From: a virus
Virus record (IMG/VR): IMGVR_UViG_3300027770_000032
DNA length: 64,000 nt
Reading direction: 5' to 3' (one strand)
The stretch's first letter is position 1. The number at the start of each line of letters is the position of its first letter. A model generated the notes under the pieces. That model saw nothing but the letters and a program-made list of their open reading frames with translations, was not told the origin of the DNA and did not search any database. Both the position numbers and the translations under genes were made by a program. Below are positions 3,795 through 44,406 of the stretch, one piece after another.

Positions 3795-4865
3795 ATGTCA
3801 GACCTATTAAATAAATTGCGTAAGAATACCACAATCAAAGATTCGGATATCTTATCAGATTCCAAGTTCTTCAATGCCAAGGACATGATCCGCACGACAG
3901 TGCCTGCAATCAACATTGCATTGAGTGGTAAAATTAATGGTGGCTTCGTTCCTGGTCTGACTATTTGGGCAGGTCCATCAAAGCACTTTAAAACTTCGTT
4001 CAGTCTTCTCATGGCGAAGGCATATATGGACACTTATCCTGATGCAGTCATGCTTTTTTATGACTCAGAATTTGGTACTCCTCAAGCTTACTTCGACTCG
4101 TTCGGCATCGACACATCTCGAGTTCTCCATACTCCCATCACAGATGTAGAACAGTTGAAGTTTGATATTATGCAACAGTTTGGTGAGATCAAGCGCGGTG
4201 ATCATGTCATCATCGTAATCGATTCTGTTGGTAACCTTGCATCGAAGAAAGAAGTCGAAGATGCATTGAAGCAAAACTCGGCAGCCGATATGACTCGTGC
4301 AAAACAACTCAAGTCTCTCTTCCGTATGGTAACACCACACCTCAATCTGAAAGATATTCCGCTAGTCGTGGTCAATCACACCTATCAGACTCAAGAGATG
4401 TACTCGAAGGCTGTGGTTTCTGGTGGTACAGGCATCTATTACTCGGCTGATAACATCTTCATCATCGGGCGTCAGCAAGAAAAAGATGGCAAGGAAGTCA
4501 CTGGTTATAACTTCATCATCAACGTCGAGAAGTCACGTTATGTAAAAGAAAAATCAAAGATTCCTATCGAAGTGTCATGGGACAAGGGTATCAGCAAATG
4601 GTCTGGTCTCTTGGATATGGCACTCGAGTCTGGTCATGTCATCAAGCCAAAGGTTGGTTGGTATCAGAAGGTTGATATGGAAACTGGCGAAATCCTTGAC
4701 AAGTCTTATCGTATCGCTGATACCTACAACGTTGGTTTCTGGCATCCTATTTTGATCTGCCCGAAGTTTGTTGACTTCATTGAGAACAAGTATGCTGCAG
4801 CCAACGGTGCTATTATGCAAAGTGAAGACGACGTGGCAGATGTTTATGAGATGGAGGATGAATGA
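3795..4865 (+). CDS. uvsX: RecA-like recombinase
   Basis: GPSKHFKT Walker A, YDSEFG, IDSVGNLAS; AAGGAG RBS. Confidence 0.95.
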   Translation: MSDLLNKLRKNTTIKDSDILSDSKFFNAKDMIRTTVPAINIALSGKINGGFVPGLTIWAGPSKHFKTSFSLLMAKAYMDTYPDAVMLFYDSEFGTPQAYFDSFGIDTSRVLHTPITDVEQLKFDIMQQFGEIKRGDHVIIVIDSVGNLASKKEVEDALKQNSAADMTRAKQLKSLFRMVTPHLNLKDIPLVVVNHTYQTQEMYSKAVVSGGTGIYYSADNIFIIGRQQEKDGKEVTGYNFIINVEKSRYVKEKSKIPIEVSWDKGISKWSGLLDMALESGHVIKPKVGWYQKVDMETGEILDKSYRIADTYNVGFWHPILICPKFVDFIENKYAAANGAIMQSEDDVADVYEMEDE

Positions 4866-6277
4866 GAATTGAACATATCATATTTGGAAATCTTATCGAA
4901 AACGAGGAATACGGTCGTAAGGTCATTCCATTCCTCAAAGAAGAGTACTTTACCGACACTGTAGATCGTAAGATCTTCTCTATCATTCATGAATATGTGG
5001 GAAAGTATAACAACTTTCCTACAAAATCTGCTGTCGAGATCGATCTCAACGATGTCGGTGGTTTGTCTGATGATCAGTTTAAGACTGCAAAAGAAGTTGT
5101 CTCTGGACTTGACAAATCTGAAGATCGTGATGTGGCATGGCTCGTAGATAATACCGAGAAGTTTTGTAAAGACAAGGCTCTATATAATGCTCTGATGCAA
5201 TCGATTCAGATCGTCGATGATAGTAAGAAGGATAGCATATCTGTTGGATCCATTCCTCAGATCTTGACTAATGCTCTCGGTGTTTCTTTCGATAGTCATG
5301 TTGGTCATGACTTCTTGAATGACGCAGCAGAACGCTATGAGTTCTATCATCGGAAAGAAGTTCGAATTGGTTTCGATCTCGATCACTTTAACAAGATTAC
5401 TCAAGGCGGTCTCCCTCGCAAGACACTCAATATTGCTCTTGCTGGCACTGGTGTCGGTAAGTCATTGTTCATGTGTCATGGCGCGGCACATAACTTGATG
5501 GCAGGTCAGAATGTCTTGTATATTACTCTCGAAATGGCAGAAGAAAGAATCGCCGAGCGTATCGATGCCAATCTTCTTGGTGTCACGCTTATCGATCTCA
5601 AAGATCTGCCACAGGCAATCTACTATAAGTTGATCGGAAGAGTCAAGGAACGAGCAAAAGGTAAGCTCATTGTGAAGGAGTATCCAACAGCATGCGCAGG
5701 CGCCGCAAACTTTCGACATCTCTTAAACGAGTTGAAGATCAAGAAGAACTTTATCCCGGACATTATCTACATCGATTATCTCAACATCTGTGCATCTTCG
5801 AGGATCAAACCGGGATCGAACGTGAACTCGTACACCTACATCAAGGCGATCGCCGAGGAACTTCGCGGCCTCGCCGTCGAGTTCAACGTCCCTATTGTTT
5901 CGGCGACTCAGACTAATCGTTCTGGTTTTAGTAGCTCTGATGTTGGTCTCGAAGATACTTCTGAATCGTTCGGTTTGCCGGCAACTGCAGATTTTATGTT
6001 TGCCTTGATTACGAGCGAAGAGTTACGTCAACTTAATCAGATCATGGTCAAACAACTCAAGAACCGTTACGGCGATCCATCGGTGAATAAACGCTTTGTG
6101 ATTGGTGTTGACTACTCGAAGATGAGACTGTATAATGTAGAAGCTTCTGCTCAAGTCGACATCGTGCAAGATGAAGATCGACCAATCTTTGACAATACAA
6201 ACTCTGGTTATCGACTCGAAAATGAATCGAAACCAGTCAGCAAGTTCGAGAAAATCAAATTTGCAGGTTTCAAATGA
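4862..6277 (+). CDS. gp41: Replicative DnaB-like helicase
   Basis: AGTGVGKS, ITLEMAE, IDYLNI, ATQTNR, KNRYGD. Confidence 0.96.
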   Translation: MRIEHIIFGNLIENEEYGRKVIPFLKEEYFTDTVDRKIFSIIHEYVGKYNNFPTKSAVEIDLNDVGGLSDDQFKTAKEVVSGLDKSEDRDVAWLVDNTEKFCKDKALYNALMQSIQIVDDSKKDSISVGSIPQILTNALGVSFDSHVGHDFLNDAAERYEFYHRKEVRIGFDLDHFNKITQGGLPRKTLNIALAGTGVGKSLFMCHGAAHNLMAGQNVLYITLEMAEERIAERIDANLLGVTLIDLKDLPQAIYYKLIGRVKERAKGKLIVKEYPTACAGAANFRHLLNELKIKKNFIPDIIYIDYLNICASSRIKPGSNVNSYTYIKAIAEELRGLAVEFNVPIVSATQTNRSGFSSSDVGLEDTSESFGLPATADFMFALITSEELRQLNQIMVKQLKNRYGDPSVNKRFVIGVDYSKMRLYNVEASAQVDIVQDEDRPIFDNTNSGYRLENESKPVSKFEKIKFAGFK

Positions 6278-6456
6278 TCGATAATCTCAGGAACGGTTGG
6301 ATAATCAATACAGTCAAAAATCCTAAATACAGATGGAAATGCCAGATACTAAAGAATACTTGGTGGATGGTCGAGGAAGGCAATGAGCCTAATTGGTTTC
6401 ATCGCAAGATGCAAGAACTTTGTTTTGGTTTTAAATGGGAGAAGATTGATGGTTAA
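6274..6456 (+). CDS. Hypothetical protein
   Basis: ATGA overlap with gp41. Confidence 0.6.
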   Translation: MIDNLRNGWIINTVKNPKYRWKCQILKNTWWMVEEGNEPNWFHRKMQELCFGFKWEKIDG

Positions 6457-6691
6457 CTACAAGATCGTAAATACTGGAAAGATCGTCAACGTTGGTGGCG
6501 GGTTTGGAGAAATGGGTGGAGATATCCTCGAGACCAAGACAGATCAGATTGTAGTCAAGGGTATGCGTATGTCCAAAGCCAAGGAGATGGTTCGTCACCT
6601 AAACTTTGGCGGTGGGTTTGATGGATCTACTCCAGCATTTTTTTTAGCCGAACGCGAAAAAACTTTAGAATTGACTGTAGAACTTGTATAA
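6449..6691 (+). CDS. Hypothetical protein
   Basis: Start revised to ATG 6449 (GGGAG RBS); HLNFGGGFDGSTPAFF. Confidence 0.65.
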   Translation: MVNYKIVNTGKIVNVGGGFGEMGGDILETKTDQIVVKGMRMSKAKEMVRHLNFGGGFDGSTPAFFLAEREKTLELTVELV

Positions 6692-6694
6692 ATA
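6687..6694 (+). promoter_or_regulatory. T4 late promoter
   Basis: TATAAATA. Confidence 0.7.
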
Positions 6695-6699
6695 GATGT

Positions 6700-6809
6700 A
6701 CACTATGTGGTGCGTGGATATACAGTTCAACTGTGTAAGTTAGGCAAGAGTCTTAATTGACGAATGGAATAGGCAGGGTCACAGGTGGGGTTCCTCCTGC
6801 TACACGCAT
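6700..6809 (+). ncRNA. Candidate structured ncRNA
   Basis: Lies between a late promoter and a terminator with no sizeable ORF; closing stem GTGCGTG/CACGCAT, internal hairpins and a possible pseudoknot. Confidence 0.55.
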
Positions 6810-6810
6810 G

Positions 6811-6841
6811 ATGGGCGGCTTTCGGGTCGCCCATTTTTTTT
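6811..6841 (+). terminator. Rho-independent terminator
   Basis: ATGGGCGGCT-TTCG-GGTCGCCCAT followed by a T run. Confidence 0.9.
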
Positions 6842-6850
6842 GTCTTTTTT

Positions 6851-6915
6851 AAAAATAAACATGTACATTTTATCAAAACTTTGGTAGTATGAATAATAAG
6901 CTAAGGAGATTGTTA
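6851..6915 (+). repeat. Promoter+RBS cassette, copy 1
   Basis: 65 bp identical to 41417-41481: AAAAATAAACA-TGTACA-N17-TAGTAT...TAAGGAG. Confidence 0.9.
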
Positions 6916-7218
6916 ATGACTGCTTTTACAAAAACTAACTTCGAATACCATGGTGGATACCTGCACTACATGACTGCTGCAGGTGAACGCAAGTTTGTTG
7001 CGCGCTTCAAGCATCGTGGTCCAGTTACCAAGGCTAAGTTTCAAGCCGCATTGATTAAGCACTACACAGTCGAAGGTTACTTTGCTCGTCTGGTTGGTCC
7101 TTATAATGCTCAAGGTGAAGCTCCTCTGCAGATCTTGATGAATGACGAGATCTTGCAATTCGATCGTGATGATTTAGGCCGCGGATTCTTTATCTTAGAC
7201 GGTAAAGAACTCCGCTAA
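6916..7218 (+). CDS. Hypothetical early protein
   Basis: TAAGGAG RBS before ATG 6916. Confidence 0.75.
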   Translation: MTAFTKTNFEYHGGYLHYMTAAGERKFVARFKHRGPVTKAKFQAALIKHYTVEGYFARLVGPYNAQGEAPLQILMNDEILQFDRDDLGRGFFILDGKELR

Positions 7219-11407: not shown

Positions 11408-12013
11408 ATGATAAAGAAACGTTTCAGAGAGTTTGTTGGTTCAGGTACGCTTACGATATTCGATATCGATGAGACGCTGTTCCATACATATGCAAAGGTT
11501 GCTGTTGTGAAAGATGGCAAGGTTGTTCGAATGCTCGACAACCAAGAGTTCAACACTTACAAACGTAAGAAGGGTGAAACCTACGACTTCGGAGAGTTTG
11601 CAAATGCTGAGGTGTTTCGCAAGTCATCTAAACCAATCACTCGAATGGTTGCCAAAACAAAAGCGATCTTTGCTAACTCAAAGAAGAATCCTCATAGTCG
11701 AGTGATTATCTGCACAGCACGAGCTGACTTCGATAATAAGGATATCTTCCTTCAGACGTTCAGAGATCATGGTCTACCTATCGATAATATCCATGTCGAA
11801 CGCGCTGGTAACCTGAAGATAGACTCTTCGGCAGAAGCCAAGAAGATCATTTTTCGGAAGTATATAAATACTAAGAACTACGTAAAGCTTCGGTTGTTTG
11901 ATGATGCTCCGAGCAATCTTCAAGCATTTCTTTCGTTAAAGAAAGAATTTCCTAACATTACGTTCGAAGCTTATTTTGTAAATCCTGATGGATCGGTAAA
12001 AACAGTACGATGA
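11408..12013 (+). CDS. HAD-superfamily phosphatase
   Basis: FDIDETL, CTAR, K, LFDD motifs I-IV. Confidence 0.85.
   Translation: MIKKRFREFVGSGTLTIFDIDETLFHTYAKVAVVKDGKVVRMLDNQEFNTYKRKKGETYDFGEFANAEVFRKSSKPITRMVAKTKAIFANSKKNPHSRVIICTARADFDNKDIFLQTFRDHGLPIDNIHVERAGNLKIDSSAEAKKIIFRKYINTKNYVKLRLFDDAPSNLQAFLSLKKEFPNITFEAYFVNPDGSVKTVR
11863..11870 (+). promoter_or_regulatory. T4 late promoter inside the HAD gene
   Basis: TATAAATA upstream of the 12010 ORF. Confidence 0.55.
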
Positions 12014-13179
12014 CAACCTTTAAAGATTTCCTTGCCGAAGAGCTCGACGAAAGTAAACTTACGCATCTTGAGCATGCTGAAGATCACGTGATTAATGCTG
12101 GTCATGAAGGCTTTTCTCATGCCTATCATAATCTGAAAGATGTGCATGATAAGTTGACTGGTAAGAAGAACGATACCAAAGTGACTATGAAGTATGATGG
12201 TTCTCCTTCTGTAGTATTTGGTCGTCATCCTCAAACCGGTCGATTCTTCGTGGCATCAAAGTCTGCCTTTAATAAGAATCCGAAGATTAACTACACCGAA
12301 GAAGATATTCAAAAGAATCACGGTCATGCTCCGGGTTTGGTAGAAAAACTCAAAGCAGCTTTACAACATCTTCCGAAAGTCACACCGAAGAAAGGTGTTT
12401 TCCAAGGTGATATTATGCATACGCCTAATGATGTGCATGAATCTGATGGTCGCGTGCACTTTACTCCAAATACGATTACGTATTCTGCTGCGAGAGCTTC
12501 AGCGCAAGGCCAAGCTGCTTTAAACGCAAAGATAGGCATTGCCGTTCATACGAAGTATAATGGTAATAATCTCGAAGATATGCAAGCCGAACACGGCGCT
12601 GATTTGAGCGAGTTTGGATTGCATAGAGATGTGCATTTGATTTCTACTGCTCATCGCCTTGATAATATTAAATATACTCCTCAGCAACGAGAAAGATTTG
12701 CAAGGGCGATGGCTGCTGCAGCAAAGGCGAATAAAAAAACAAAGCCTGAAACGTATGAAGCGATCAAAGGCCACGAGGTTCCACTCAAGACTTACATTAA
12801 TCATACTGTTCGTACCGGTACAAGACCGAATGTCGAAGGTTTTATGAATCACTACATCAAGTCGCAACAGAAAAGGGTTGATAGTGTAAAAACCGAAAAA
12901 GCAAAAGCAGCAAAAACTGCCGAGATGGAAACGGCAATTGGTCATGTTCAACGCAATCGTGCGCATTTTGAAAATGTATTAAATCAACATAAGGCGCTGC
13001 AGAAGGCCAAGAACATATTAACGAATACACTTTCAAGTAATTCAGAATTTGATCATAGTATTAATGGAAAGAAAGCAAAGCCTGAAGGCTTTGTGGTAGT
13101 CAGACATAATCGTCCTACTAAGTTTGTTGATCGCGCTGAGTTCTCGGCGGCCAATTTTAATAGAGGTAAACCAGCATGA
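12010..13179 (+). CDS. ATP-dependent RNA-ligase-like covalent nucleotidyltransferase (DUF6267-like)
   Basis: KYDGS (motif I), FFVASK, VFQGD (III), EGFVV (IV), TKFV (V); N-terminus MTTFKDFLAE. Confidence 0.65.
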   Translation: MTTFKDFLAEELDESKLTHLEHAEDHVINAGHEGFSHAYHNLKDVHDKLTGKKNDTKVTMKYDGSPSVVFGRHPQTGRFFVASKSAFNKNPKINYTEEDIQKNHGHAPGLVEKLKAALQHLPKVTPKKGVFQGDIMHTPNDVHESDGRVHFTPNTITYSAARASAQGQAALNAKIGIAVHTKYNGNNLEDMQAEHGADLSEFGLHRDVHLISTAHRLDNIKYTPQQRERFARAMAAAAKANKKTKPETYEAIKGHEVPLKTYINHTVRTGTRPNVEGFMNHYIKSQQKRVDSVKTEKAKAAKTAEMETAIGHVQRNRAHFENVLNQHKALQKAKNILTNTLSSNSEFDHSINGKKAKPEGFVVVRHNRPTKFVDRAEFSAANFNRGKPA

Positions 13180-13787
13180 AGTCAATTCATATTACACAAG
13201 GAAGATTTAATCCTGTTCATGCTGGACATGCGATGGTTGTACAGAATGTAATGAATGCCGCCAAAAAAGAAGGTGCAGATCATAAGATCTTAACGACTGG
13301 ATCTCATGATGCAAAGAAGAATCCTTTGACGCCAGAGCAAAAGGTAAAGCATCTTTCTCGCGCTGTCAAGGGTGCACACGTCGAAGCCATGACAAGAGAG
13401 CATCCTACGCTTCTTCATCAGATGTCAAAACTACACAAAGCTGGTTATACTCACGTTACCATGCATGTCGGATCAGATCGTGTTAAAGAATTTCACGCTC
13501 TGTTGCATAGATACAATGGTGCAGAAGGTAAACACGGTCACTATAACTTTAAAAGTATTAAAGTCAAGGCTGTAGGCGGTGAGCGTACGGAAGGCGGAAG
13601 TGGAATTGAATCTGCTTCTGGTACTACGATGCGTAAGCATGCTGCAGCTGGAGATAAGGAATCATTTCATAAGATGGCTCCATCGGGTATGAGTAAAGCA
13701 CATAAAGATGAATTGTATCATGATGTCCGCAAAGGTATGGGTGTCAACGAATCATTTATTATTCGATTTAAAAACTGGATTAGTTGA
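13176..13787 (+). CDS. HxGH (cytidylyltransferase-like) nucleotidyltransferase
   Basis: GRFNPVHAGH, VGSDR, SASGTTMRK. Confidence 0.85.
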   Translation: MKSIHITQGRFNPVHAGHAMVVQNVMNAAKKEGADHKILTTGSHDAKKNPLTPEQKVKHLSRAVKGAHVEAMTREHPTLLHQMSKLHKAGYTHVTMHVGSDRVKEFHALLHRYNGAEGKHGHYNFKSIKVKAVGGERTEGGSGIESASGTTMRKHAAAGDKESFHKMAPSGMSKAHKDELYHDVRKGMGVNESFIIRFKNWIS

Positions 13788-43607: not shown

Positions 43608-44045
43608 ATGAAGAATTTTATCGCATTCGCACTGCTCTTGATGGCAACTCCTGTCATCGCACAGAAGACACCTGTCGGTGTAACCTATGACGCAAAGATT
43701 ATCCGCGCGATTGATGGTGATACCATCGTCATTGCCGCTCCATACCTTCCAGCTCCTTTGAAGCCTGAACTTGGCGTTCGTATCTTTGGTGTTGATACAC
43801 CTGAAAAAAGCTTTCGTGCTAAATGTGAGAGCGAAAAAGTACGAGGCGAACAGGCTTCTGTTTTTGTCAAAGATGTGATTGCTGCTACAAAGAAGCATCA
43901 GGTTGTTCTGTATGATTGGGACAAGTTCGGTGGTCGTGTTCTTGGAGATATCCTCCTTGATGGCATGAGCCTTCGCGATCTGTTGATCAAGAACAGTTTT
44001 GCTCGTGCATACTTCGGAGATGCAAAGCAATCTTGGTGCAATTAA
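43608..44045 (+). CDS. Thermonuclease (SNase) with signal peptide
   Basis: IDGDT, VRIFGVDTPE, DKFGGRVLG. Confidence 0.88.
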   Translation: MKNFIAFALLLMATPVIAQKTPVGVTYDAKIIRAIDGDTIVIAAPYLPAPLKPELGVRIFGVDTPEKSFRAKCESEKVRGEQASVFVKDVIAATKKHQVVLYDWDKFGGRVLGDILLDGMSLRDLLIKNSFARAYFGDAKQSWCN

Positions 44046-44048
44046 ACA

Positions 44049-44077
44049 TGTACAATTAAGCCAAAACATTGTATATA
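44049..44077 (+). promoter_or_regulatory. Early-type promoter for tmRNA
   Basis: TGTACA-N17-TATATA. Confidence 0.6.
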
Positions 44078-44086
44078 TAGAATATC

Positions 44087-44342
44087 AGTTGTTGACAATC
44101 AACAATAAAGGCGGAAAGACCGGGGTTCGACTCCCCGCACCTCCACCATCTATATTGTTCAAACAGTATAGTTGATGGGGGTGAACATGGAATTCGATTT
44201 TCGTGTAATAGGGCGGTTCGAGACTGATTGCTTGGCAAAGTGCCACAAAACATAAATGCTAACGATAACGATAGCTTTGCAGATATCCGCCTAGCGGCAT
44301 GATCTACACGGGTATGGCTCCACCTTGGAACAGAACGGGCCA
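44087..44342 (+). ncRNA. ssrA: Two-piece (circularly permuted) tmRNA
   Basis: T-arm CGGGG-TTCGACT-CCCCG, then CACCTCC-A-CCA (ends 44148), an intervening hairpin, then GGGGGTG (44177) with a G3.U70 pair; tag ORF 44258-44302 ANDNDSFADIRLAA*. Outer ends are approximate. Confidence 0.92.
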
Positions 44343-44398
44343 CTTGCTACCAGTTGAATTGCTGGTGCTACGAGTCGCCAGAAAACCGCTGGTGGTAG

Positions 44399-44406
44399 TA
44401 TAAATA
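44399..44406 (+). promoter_or_regulatory. T4 late promoter
   Basis: TATAAATA. Confidence 0.7.

What the first reader, a model, noticed from the sequence alone, without database searches (positions are those of the whole stretch)
6687..6841. Orphan late-promoter-to-terminator unit: candidate novel pseudoknotted ncRNA
Seen: TATAAATA (6687), about 110 nt with no sizeable ORF, then a strong UUCG terminator. The predicted fold has P1 GTGCGTG(6710)/CACGCAT(6803), a hairpin TATACAGT/ACTGTGTA (6719-6737) and an imperfect hairpin at 6738-6758. Crossing stems GGAAT(6766)/GTTCC(6790) and GCAGG(6773)/CCTGC(6796) would form an H-type pseudoknot. It is GC-richer than the flanking intergenic DNA. Inference: a stand-alone structured late RNA (ribozyme, sponge, or packaging/regulatory RNA) that I do not recognise.
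Basis: partly seen in the sequence, partly recalled or inferred. Interest (0 to 1): 0.7.

Follow-up and report, generated by a model that had tools for sequence, protein, structure and literature searches.

The report
New late structured RNA of T4-like phages
Just after the helicase gene, this uncultured T4-like phage carries a small gene for a folded RNA of about 140 bases that hundreds of related uncultured phages keep almost unchanged in its core, that matches no described RNA family, and whose job is still unknown.

Summary
Window 6687-6841 is a self-contained unit: an exact T4-type late promoter, about 110 nt with no conserved ORF, and a strong terminator.

It belongs to an RNA family I found in 171 loci (44 distinct cores) of uncultured T4-like phage contigs. 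I found it in none of 185,579 prokaryote genomes and in none of five cultured relatives. No Rfam family or paper matches it.

Covariation supports a four-way junction (P1-P4): 98% of cells are paired and 20 of 29 pairs change on both sides. Its "imperfect hairpin" (6738-6758) is not conserved; a short P3 (6750-52/6759-61) takes its place.

The pseudoknot stem GGAA/UUCC cannot be tested. All 58 distinct sequences carry it unchanged, and the proposed fifth pair is not kept.

About 24 nucleotides never vary: GGCAAG, GGAA, AGGUGGGGUUCCU and one G-C pair. Tests argue against a riboswitch, an anti-Shine-Dalgarno small RNA and rRNA antisense.

My best guess is that the invariant junction and loop nucleotides form a compact core that binds a partner in trans late in infection.

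This scan had already found the same family on other DNA (e1-5836780 and first-reader notes e1-5896620, e1-5896633; probably e1-5827831 and e1-5882521). A conserved small protein family usually lies just upstream.

The parts
6687..6694 (+). T4-type late promoter TATAAATA. The stop codon of the upstream small ORF lies inside it.
   Evidence: Exact match. 147 of 157 family loci with full flanks have an exact TATAAATA upstream. The sequence upstream of it diverges completely between relatives.
6699..6709 (+). 5' leader. The transcription start is inferred at about 6699-6701.
   Evidence: The four bases after the promoter vary, and invariance starts at 6699 in the window-type relatives. The start position is inferred from T4 late-promoter geometry (own knowledge). 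Leader length and sequence differ between subtypes.
6710..6716 (+). P1, 5' strand (GUGCGUG); pairs with 6803-6809
   Evidence: All 7 pairs change on both sides in relatives; 99% of cells are paired.
6719..6737 (+). P2 hairpin (6719-25 / 6731-37, loop 6726-30)
   Evidence: All 7 pairs change on both sides; 98.7% of cells are paired.
6743..6748 (+). Invariant GGCAAG in the J2/3 joining strand
   Evidence: Identical in every aligned member. It was a fixed anchor in scans 21 and 59 but free in scans 16, 28 and 29.
6750..6761 (+). P3, a short variable hairpin (GUC 6750-52 / GAC 6759-61; a fourth pair 6749/6762 in most relatives)
   Evidence: All 4 pairs change on both sides; 93% of cells are paired. 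In other subtypes it is replaced by GNRA- or UUCG-capped or longer hairpins.
6766..6769 (+). Invariant GGAA in J3/4. It could pair with UUCC at 6791-94 (candidate pseudoknot).
   Evidence: 58 of 58 distinct sequences are identical, including those from a scan that left these bases free. The next base (6770) varies among U, A, G and C.
6772..6777 (+). P4, 5' strand (GGCAGG); pairs with 6796-6801 (CCUGCU)
   Evidence: At least 12 complementary strand combinations occur. Five of the six pairs covary across the family; only G6777-C6796 is fixed.
6778..6782 (+). Variable 5' part of the P4 loop. In some subtypes an extra hairpin (P4a) is inserted here.
6783..6795 (+). Invariant 13-nt loop core AGGUGGGGUUCCU
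   Evidence: Identical in all members. GGGG and UUCC stayed unchanged when scans left GUUCC or UUCC free. AGGUGGG was fixed in every scan, so its invariance is partly by construction.
6796..6801 (+). P4, 3' strand (CCUGCU)
   Evidence: See P4. U6798 is C in a large clade whose partner is G. C6797 is U in L254, where the partner is A. G6799 is A in L262, where the partner is U.
6803..6809 (+). P1, 3' strand (CACGCAU)
6810..6841 (+). Intrinsic terminator (stem-loop 6810-6835, T-run to 6841)
   Evidence: Relatives carry unrelated terminator stems at the same place. 144 of 157 loci have a hairpin plus T-run.
6449..6691 (+). Context: a small conserved protein (80 aa from the likely start at 6449) with the C-terminal motif hLNxGGGFDGWTPxF. 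It usually lies immediately upstream of the RNA.
   Evidence: The RNA followed it in 4 of 4 sampled gp41-linked members.

Best explanation
Shown: 6687-6841 is a stand-alone RNA gene. It belongs to an undescribed family so far seen only in uncultured T4-like phage contigs. A late promoter gives a transcript of about 140 nt that ends at its own terminator and folds into a four-way junction (P1-P4). The helices act as scaffolding and change freely by compensatory substitution. About 24 nucleotides outside them, or at their edge, never change: GGCAAG in J2/3, GGAA in J3/4, AGGUGGGGUUCCU in the 3' half of the P4 loop, and the G-C pair that closes P4.

Inferred (about 40-45%): these purine-rich invariant strands pack into one compact tertiary core, possibly through a GGAA:UUCC pseudoknot. 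That core is the working part. It binds a partner in trans late in infection, either a host or phage protein or a small ligand. On this reading the RNA is not a base-pairing regulator or a cis switch.
For: Discrete gene:
- Conservation starts at the promoter and ends at the terminator. The flanks and the terminator stem differ between relatives.
- 147 of 157 loci have an exact TATAAATA upstream, and 144 of 157 have a terminator.

RNA-level structure:
- 98.2% of cells are paired.
- 20 of 29 pairs change on both sides.
- 0 of 500 shuffles reach the observed values, and sliding the partners destroys the signal.
- G-U intermediates appear on the + strand only.

Functional core:
- GGCAAG, GGAA and AGGUGGGGUUCCU are identical in 58 distinct sequences whose helices differ at almost every pair.
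- GGAA and UUCC stayed identical in a scan that left them free.

Not cis-regulatory:
- The terminator's 5' arm is no more complementary to the RNA's 3' part than shuffled arms are (mean z +0.35, 57 members).
- Downstream genes have their own promoters.
- One lineage has the RNA convergent with gp41.

Phage-only distribution:
- 0 hits in 185,579 prokaryote genomes.
- Absent from five cultured relatives.
Against: - No partner has been identified.
- No transcript data exist, because no cultured phage carries the RNA.
- The alignments used for pair counts were fitted to the model, which inflates the share of paired cells.
- The invariance of AGGUGGG is partly built into my search patterns, so more divergent members may have been missed.
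- Invariant single strands fit a catalytic core or a long seed for an unknown RNA target equally well.
- The pseudoknot has no covariation support, and its 2-nt and 1-nt linkers are awkward for a classical H-type knot.
Confidence: 0.45

Rival explanations
1. RNA partner of the adjacent small protein, or part of an anti-toxin or RNA-damage module. The 80-aa hLNxGGGFDGWTPxF protein encoded just upstream would bind the RNA, or act with it against a host RNA-targeting toxin.
For: - The small protein is homologous across RNA subtypes that share little else.
- Its last codons overlap the RNA's promoter.
- All 4 sampled gp41-linked members (37-64% identical to the window protein) were followed by the RNA.
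- A distant member forms an overlapping gene pair with a HicA toxin gene (PF07927, 52.6 bits), next to T4-type RNA ligase 1.
- The predicted fold is three strands plus a helix (pLDDT 79).
Against: - The two are separable. L257, L258 and L259/L260 have the protein but no RNA.
- L046/L098 and the L141 lineage have the RNA with no such ORF beside it.
- The protein family (849 clusters at 50% identity) looks much more diverse than the RNA family found so far.
- No RNA-binding or HicB-like fold was recovered (best Z 3.6).
- The protein probably belongs to the earlier gp41 operon, whereas the RNA is late (inference).
Confidence: 0.12
2. Trans-acting base-pairing small RNA. An exposed seed would pair with host or phage RNAs: either the C/U-rich UUCCUCC (anti-Shine-Dalgarno-like) or the G-rich GGUGGGG. 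The G-rich seed could, for example, pair with mRNA ribosome-binding sites, or with the CUCCACC 3' end of tRNA-Ala or tmRNA.
For: - The invariant single-stranded 13-mer is long enough to be a seed.
- cmscan gave a weak match (15 bits, E = 1.1) to the alphaproteobacterial anti-SD sRNA MmgR/suhB.
- GGUGGGG is complementary, with one G-U pair, to the CUCCACC acceptor end typical of tRNA-Ala and tmRNA. This rests on my own knowledge and was not tested.
Against: - CCUCC is not invariant. Its last C pairs in P4 and becomes U when its partner becomes A in L254, so it is a structural pair and not a seed.
- The 15 bits are far below the gathering score of 41.
- No complementary site exists in the 64-kb window (GGAGGAAC occurs at chance level).
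- 8-9-mer matches to E. coli 16S, 23S and 5S rRNA, in sense or antisense, are about as many as chance predicts.
- A seed does not explain the invariant GGCAAG and GGAA or the conserved four-way architecture.
Confidence: 0.15
3. Self-cleaving or otherwise catalytic RNA (a new ribozyme class).
For: - The helices are compact and covary, while junction and loop nucleotides are strictly invariant. This is the usual signature of small ribozymes.
- Many small ribozymes occur in phage DNA (own knowledge).
Against: - No match to any Rfam ribozyme model, even at E <= 10.
- A unit with its own promoter and terminator is unusual for self-cleaving ribozymes (own knowledge).
- Nothing here tests catalysis.
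Confidence: 0.1
4. Riboswitch or cis-acting leader. The four-way junction would be an aptamer that controls the terminator and so controls read-through into the downstream gene.
For: - The layout resembles an aptamer, and a terminator begins 0-3 nt after P1 in most members.
- Four-way-junction aptamers exist, such as SAM-I (own knowledge).
Against: - No antiterminator is apparent. The terminator arms are unrelated between subtypes, while the RNA 3' part is constant, and complementarity is not above that of shuffled arms (mean z +0.35).
- Downstream genes differ between subtypes and have their own sigma-70-like or late promoter right after the terminator.
- In L113 about 20 nt separate P1 from the terminator.
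Confidence: 0.06
5. Structured 3' end of the uvsX-gp41 operon, acting as an mRNA stabiliser, or a DNA-level element such as an origin or a packaging signal.
For: - In nearly all loci it lies just downstream of uvsX-gp41.
- Read-through from that operon would end at the same terminator (inference).
Against: - Its own late promoter is conserved in 147 of 157 loci.
- The L141 lineage has it on the opposite strand to gp41.
- 24 invariant unpaired nucleotides are not needed for a stabiliser hairpin.
- G-U-containing covariation is strand-specific, which argues against double-stranded DNA recognition.
Confidence: 0.05

Closest known systems
Orphan structured RNA motifs of T4-like phages found by comparative genomics
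   Same: A phage-borne, metagenome-rich RNA defined by covariation, with invariant loop and junction nucleotides and unknown biochemistry.
   Different: No Rfam model matches this RNA, not even weakly. manA and wcaG lie upstream of genes as presumed cis-regulators (own knowledge). This RNA is a free-standing unit with its own late promoter and terminator.
Four-way-junction riboswitch aptamers followed by a terminator (e.g. SAM-I)
   Same: A closing helix P1, three further helices, conserved junction strands, a possible loop-to-junction pseudoknot, and a terminator right after P1.
   Different: It has no antiterminator, regulates no consistent downstream gene and has no sequence match. It works like an aptamer at most in architecture.
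MmgR/suhB (RF00519) and other alphaproteobacterial sRNAs with anti-Shine-Dalgarno motifs
   Same: A UUCCUCC stretch a few bases before an intrinsic terminator. The host is possibly an alphaproteobacterium (inferred from the two-piece tmRNA in the window).
   Different: It scores 15 bits against a 41-bit threshold. The CC of the motif is base-paired in P4 and covaries. The architecture differs.
T4 stable RNAs C and D (species 1 and 2), small phage RNAs of unknown function (own knowledge)
   Same: Small, stable, structured RNAs of unknown role encoded by T4-type phages.
   Different: The T4 RNAs lie in the tRNA cluster and are processed from its transcript (own knowledge). This RNA has its own late promoter and terminator and lies next to gp41. 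I had no reference sequence to compare.

Membership tests
Any Rfam 15 family | Score at or above the family's gathering threshold | tested here: not met
   The whole-window scan found only the tmRNA at 44045-44344. A permissive scan of 6600-6920 gave 19.4 bits at best, and those matches rest largely on the terminator.
tRNA / tmRNA | Cloverleaf or tRNA-like domain recognised by ARAGORN | tested here: not met
   ARAGORN finds only the tmRNA at 44053-44393. P2 has 7 bp and P4 has an 18-nt loop that lacks the T-loop consensus (my reading of the sequence).
T4-type late transcription unit | TATAAATA element at a fixed short distance upstream of the transcribed, conserved sequence | tested here: met
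   Exact at 6687-6694, and exact in 147 of 157 family loci. Transcription itself was not observed.
Intrinsically terminated stand-alone RNA gene | G+C-rich hairpin plus a T-run directly after the conserved RNA, with no conserved ORF | tested here: met
   (144 of 157 loci).
Transcription-terminating riboswitch | Mutually exclusive antiterminator pairing between the aptamer's 3' part and the terminator's 5' arm | tested here: not met
   Duplex energies do not beat those of shuffled arms (mean z +0.35, n = 57). The terminator stems are unrelated between subtypes.
Transcription-terminating riboswitch | A consistent downstream gene in the same transcription unit | tested here: not met
   Downstream ORFs are not homologous between subtypes. 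A separate promoter follows the terminator.
   Stem GGCAGG/CCUGCU is supported by covariation. Stem GGAA/UUCC never varies (58 of 58), and the fifth pair is lost in 5 sequences. The linkers are 2 nt and 1 nt.
Anti-Shine-Dalgarno sRNA (MmgR-like) | An invariant, accessible CCUCC seed | tested here: not met
   The motif reads CCUCU in L254, with a compensating change in P4. Two of its Cs are paired in P4 in all members.
Antisense or mimic of ribosomal RNA | Extended identity or complementarity to conserved rRNA segments | tested here: not met
   Only 8-9-mers against E. coli 16S, 23S and 5S, about the number expected by chance. The host's own rRNA was not available.

The most novel reading that the evidence does not exclude
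The invariant core (GGCAAG, GGAA, AGGUGGGGUUCCU) on a freely covarying four-way scaffold is a new class of natural aptamer or ribozyme. T4-like phages would deploy it in trans late in infection. It might sequester a small signalling molecule or a host RNA-targeting defence protein, or capture the CCA ends of tRNA or tmRNA through its GGU motif.
Probability: 0.2. Interest if true: 0.85.

Novelty: new member of a known kind. Interest (0 to 1): 0.6.

Why it matters
Phage-encoded structured RNAs with their own promoters are rare, and few are understood. Its fold is firmly supported, and its sequence core is as invariant as those of riboswitches and ribozymes.

It is therefore a well-defined candidate for a new RNA function in late phage development. 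It is small enough for direct biochemistry: in-line probing, pull-downs and structure determination.

Its usual neighbour, a large uncharacterised family of small proteins with one member paired with a HicA toxin, gives a second handle on a possible link to RNA-targeting host defences.

Tried and rejected
- **Known RNA families.** Rfam at gathering and at E <= 10, and ARAGORN, gave nothing.
- **Cultured phages.** BLASTN of the unit found no real match. The CM search of the whole genomes of Melnitz-2, DLP_6, P-TIM68, DSL-LC02 and S-SRM01 gave only a 17.9-bit hit, which I treat as noise.
- **Nearest held virus record (G001).** No hit, but that record is only 35% complete.
- **Prokaryote genomes.** The core pattern gave 0 hits.
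- **Literature.** Full-text searches for the core sequence and for descriptions of such an RNA found nothing relevant.
- **rRNA mimic or antisense.** This lead came from earlier notes on other phage RNAs. Matches were at chance level.
- **Anti-SD mimic.** Rejected, because CCUCC covaries as part of P4.
- **Alternative local hairpin (CAGG.GG/CC.CCUG) competing with P4.** Its A-U pair is broken in 20 of 58 sequences, while the same base covaries with its P4 partner.
Not conserved.
- **Antiterminator.** None found.
- **Target sites in the window.** None found.
- **Coding potential.** The only in-frame short ORFs are not conserved, and substitutions and 1-nt indels follow the helices rather than codons.
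- **Small protein.** No Pfam or PHROG function, no cultured-phage homologue by tblastn, no solved-structure match (Foldseek E >= 1.4; VIA Z <= 3.6), and the ESM Atlas returned only unnamed viral clusters.
- **G-quadruplex.** Considered and set aside by reasoning only, because two of the G-runs are in P4 and a loop of zero length would be needed.

Full report
**What is in the window**

- An exact TATAAATA lies at 6687-6694.
- About 110 nt follow in which the longest ORFs are 31 and 49 aa.
- A terminator spans 6810-6835: 11 pairs, a four-base loop and a T-run.
- The window comes from a T4-like phage. UvsX (3795-4865) and the gp41-type helicase (4862-6277) lie just upstream.
- TATAAATA occurs 9 times in the window against 3.0 expected.
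- The unit is G+C-richer (0.48) than the window (0.41) and the spacer behind it (0.21).
- The single-sequence fold is moderately better than shuffles (-49.3 kcal/mol, z = -2.66). That alone would not be convincing.

**The unit is a conserved, discrete element**

- Loci fetched through the downstream ORF carry the same unit at 86-99% identity.
- In the flanked alignment, sequence upstream of the promoter is unalignable and TATAAATA is exact.
- The next four bases vary. From 6699 onwards the sequence is invariant in the close relatives. This fits a start about six bases after the promoter (T4 late-promoter geometry, own knowledge).
- The terminator stem is replaced by unrelated stems (GGGCGGC-type or GGAGGGGAG-type), so the terminator is kept as a function and not as a sequence.
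- A sigma-70-like promoter for the next gene follows the terminator.

**Family size and range**

Most of those contigs carry the RNA.
- Gapped patterns and two covariance models (R1, R2) added divergent subtypes.
- In all, 171 fetched loci carry the core, with 44 distinct core sequences.
- 147 of the 157 loci with full flanks have an exact TATAAATA upstream, and 144 of 157 have a hairpin plus T-run downstream.
- The core pattern is absent from 185,579 prokaryote genomes.
- R2 finds nothing credible in five cultured relatives whose gp41 is about 58-63% identical.
- No Rfam family, tRNA model or paper matches.

**Structure**

I counted pairs on the model-fitted alignment of 59 sequences (A4).
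- P1, P2, P3 and P4 are paired in 98% of cells.
- 20 of 29 pairs change on both sides.
- No shuffle reaches the observed values.
- Sliding the partners by one to three columns collapses pairing to 33-55% (the 40-sequence set gave the same picture).
- Caveat: a model-fitted alignment leans towards the model.

Raw sequences show the same thing for P4, independently of the alignment. At least twelve complementary strand combinations occur, for example GGCAGG/CCUGCU, GACGGG/CCCGUC, GUCGGG/CCUGAC, GUCGAG/CUCGAC and AGUAGG/CCUACU. Five of the six P4 pairs covary.

G-U intermediates on the + strand show that the constraint acts on RNA.

In window coordinates the fold is:

| Element | Coordinates |
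|---|---|
| P1 | 6710-16 / 6803-09 |
| P2 | 6719-25 / 6731-37 |
| P3 | 6750-52 / 6759-61 |
| P4 | 6772-77 / 6796-6801 |

Some subtypes insert a further hairpin into the P4 loop just before the invariant 13-mer.

- P1, the first hairpin and GCAGG/CCTGC are right.
- The hairpin at 6738-6758 shows no covariation and is mostly gapped outside the window's own subtype.
- GGAAT/GTTCC: four pairs (GGAA/UUCC) are possible in every member, but both sides are invariant in 58 of 58 distinct sequences. This includes members found by a scan that left these bases free.
- The fifth position (6770) is U, A, G or C, so that pair is not kept.
- The pseudoknot is therefore untested. By my reasoning, linkers of 2 nt and 1 nt do not allow the classical coaxial H-type arrangement, and only a side-by-side packing would fit.
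- A competing local hairpin that the MFE fold prefers is not supported. Where U6798 becomes C, it follows its P4 partner and breaks the local pair.

**What it is not**

- *Riboswitch.* The terminator arms show no complementarity to the RNA's 3' part beyond shuffled controls (mean z +0.35 over 57 members). The downstream genes are unrelated between subtypes and have their own promoters.
- *Anti-Shine-Dalgarno sRNA.* The weak MmgR/suhB match is 15 bits against a threshold of 41. The second C of CCUCC changes to U together with its P4 partner in L254.
- *rRNA mimic or antisense.* This lead came from earlier scan notes on other phage RNAs. Only chance-level 8-9-mers were found against E. coli rRNAs.
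- *3' UTR.* In the L141 lineage the RNA is convergent with gp41.
- No complementary target lies in the 64-kb window.

**Context**

- In nearly every subtype the RNA lies just downstream of uvsX-gp41.
- Between gp41 and the RNA there is usually a small protein, with its likely start at 6449 in the window. Its stop codon lies inside the RNA's promoter.
- It belongs to a large unnamed family with the motif hLNxGGGFDGWTPxF: 998 clusters at 90% identity and 849 at 50%.
- The family has no Pfam domain. I found no homologue in cultured phages by tblastn and no structural match. The predicted fold is three strands plus a helix, followed by the conserved tail, which is modelled with lower confidence (pLDDT 79 overall, 65-69 over residues 51-70).
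- Four of four sampled gp41-linked members carry the RNA behind them.
- The two are separable, though: some loci have the protein without the RNA (L257, L258, L259/260), and some have the RNA without the protein beside it (L046/L098, L141 type).
- One distant member forms an overlapping pair with a HicA toxin gene next to RNA ligase 1. This hints that the protein family may deal with RNA-targeting toxins. It is a hint and nothing more.

**Mechanism**

*Shown:* a late-promoter-driven, terminator-bounded gene for a four-way-junction RNA.

*Inferred:* because the helices vary freely while about 24 junction and loop nucleotides never do, the working part is a tertiary core built from GGCAAG, GGAA and AGGUGGGGUUCCU. 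I think it most likely binds a partner in trans late in infection (about 0.45).

The rivals are:
- an RNP with the neighbouring protein (0.12);
- a base-pairing sRNA (0.15);
- a ribozyme (0.10);
- a riboswitch (0.06);
- an mRNA 3' end or a DNA-level element (0.05).

**Novelty**

Judged against public resources, this is an undescribed RNA family. It adds a member to the known kind "orphan structured phage RNAs".

This scan had met the same family before on other genomes:
- e1-5836780 matches the L034 subtype by sequence.
- The first-reader notes e1-5896620 and e1-5896633 describe the L067 subtype.
- e1-5827831 and e1-5882521 describe a late four-helix RNA downstream of gp41 and are probably the same family.

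All of them left the function open.
- the corrected P3;
- near-complete covariation of P4;
- rejection of the anti-SD, rRNA and riboswitch readings;
- the linked small-protein family.

Noticed in passing
window 6449-6691 (+): This is a small protein (80 aa from the likely start at 6449; the ORF listing starts it at 6383) of a large unnamed family with the C-terminal motif hLNxGGGFDGWTPxF. The family has 849 clusters at 50% identity, no Pfam domain and no structural match. It usually lies between gp41 and the RNA.
   Followed up: partly
L259:2001-2499 (also L260): A distant member of that small-protein family overlaps by 14 nt with a HicA toxin gene (PF07927, 52.6 bits). The pair lies directly after T4-type RNA ligase 1 and an AAA ATPase, so the arrangement looks like an antitoxin-toxin pair inside a phage.
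   Followed up: partly
window 6862-6890 (+): A sigma-70-like promoter (TGTACA, 17 nt, TAGTAT) lies right after the RNA's terminator and is conserved in relatives as ATGTACA/GTTTACA...TATAAG. The next gene probably starts at 6916 (SD AAGGAGA, MTAFTKTN), not at 6889.
   Followed up: partly
window 44045-44393 (+): A phage-encoded two-piece (permuted) tmRNA: RF04321 at 98.9 bits, and ARAGORN gives the tag ANDNDSFADIRLAA. A TATAAATA follows it at 44399. Another first-reader entry already notes it.
   Followed up: no
L141, L182, L183, L201, L212, L216, L234: In this lineage the RNA is convergent with gp41, and two unrelated small ORFs lie between them. The RNA also carries a long P3 and an extra hairpin in the P4 loop.
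   Followed up: partly
L255:3762-5246: In a close relative of the window's RNA subtype, T4-type RNA ligase 1 and an AAA_33 (kinase-like) gene lie about 0.9 kb downstream of the RNA. The window itself has no such genes within about 9 kb downstream.
   Followed up: partly
window 12010-13787 (+): DUF6267 (340 bits) is followed by a cytidylyltransferase-like gene. The same pair appears downstream of the RNA in L251; L259 shows DUF6267 only.
   Followed up: no
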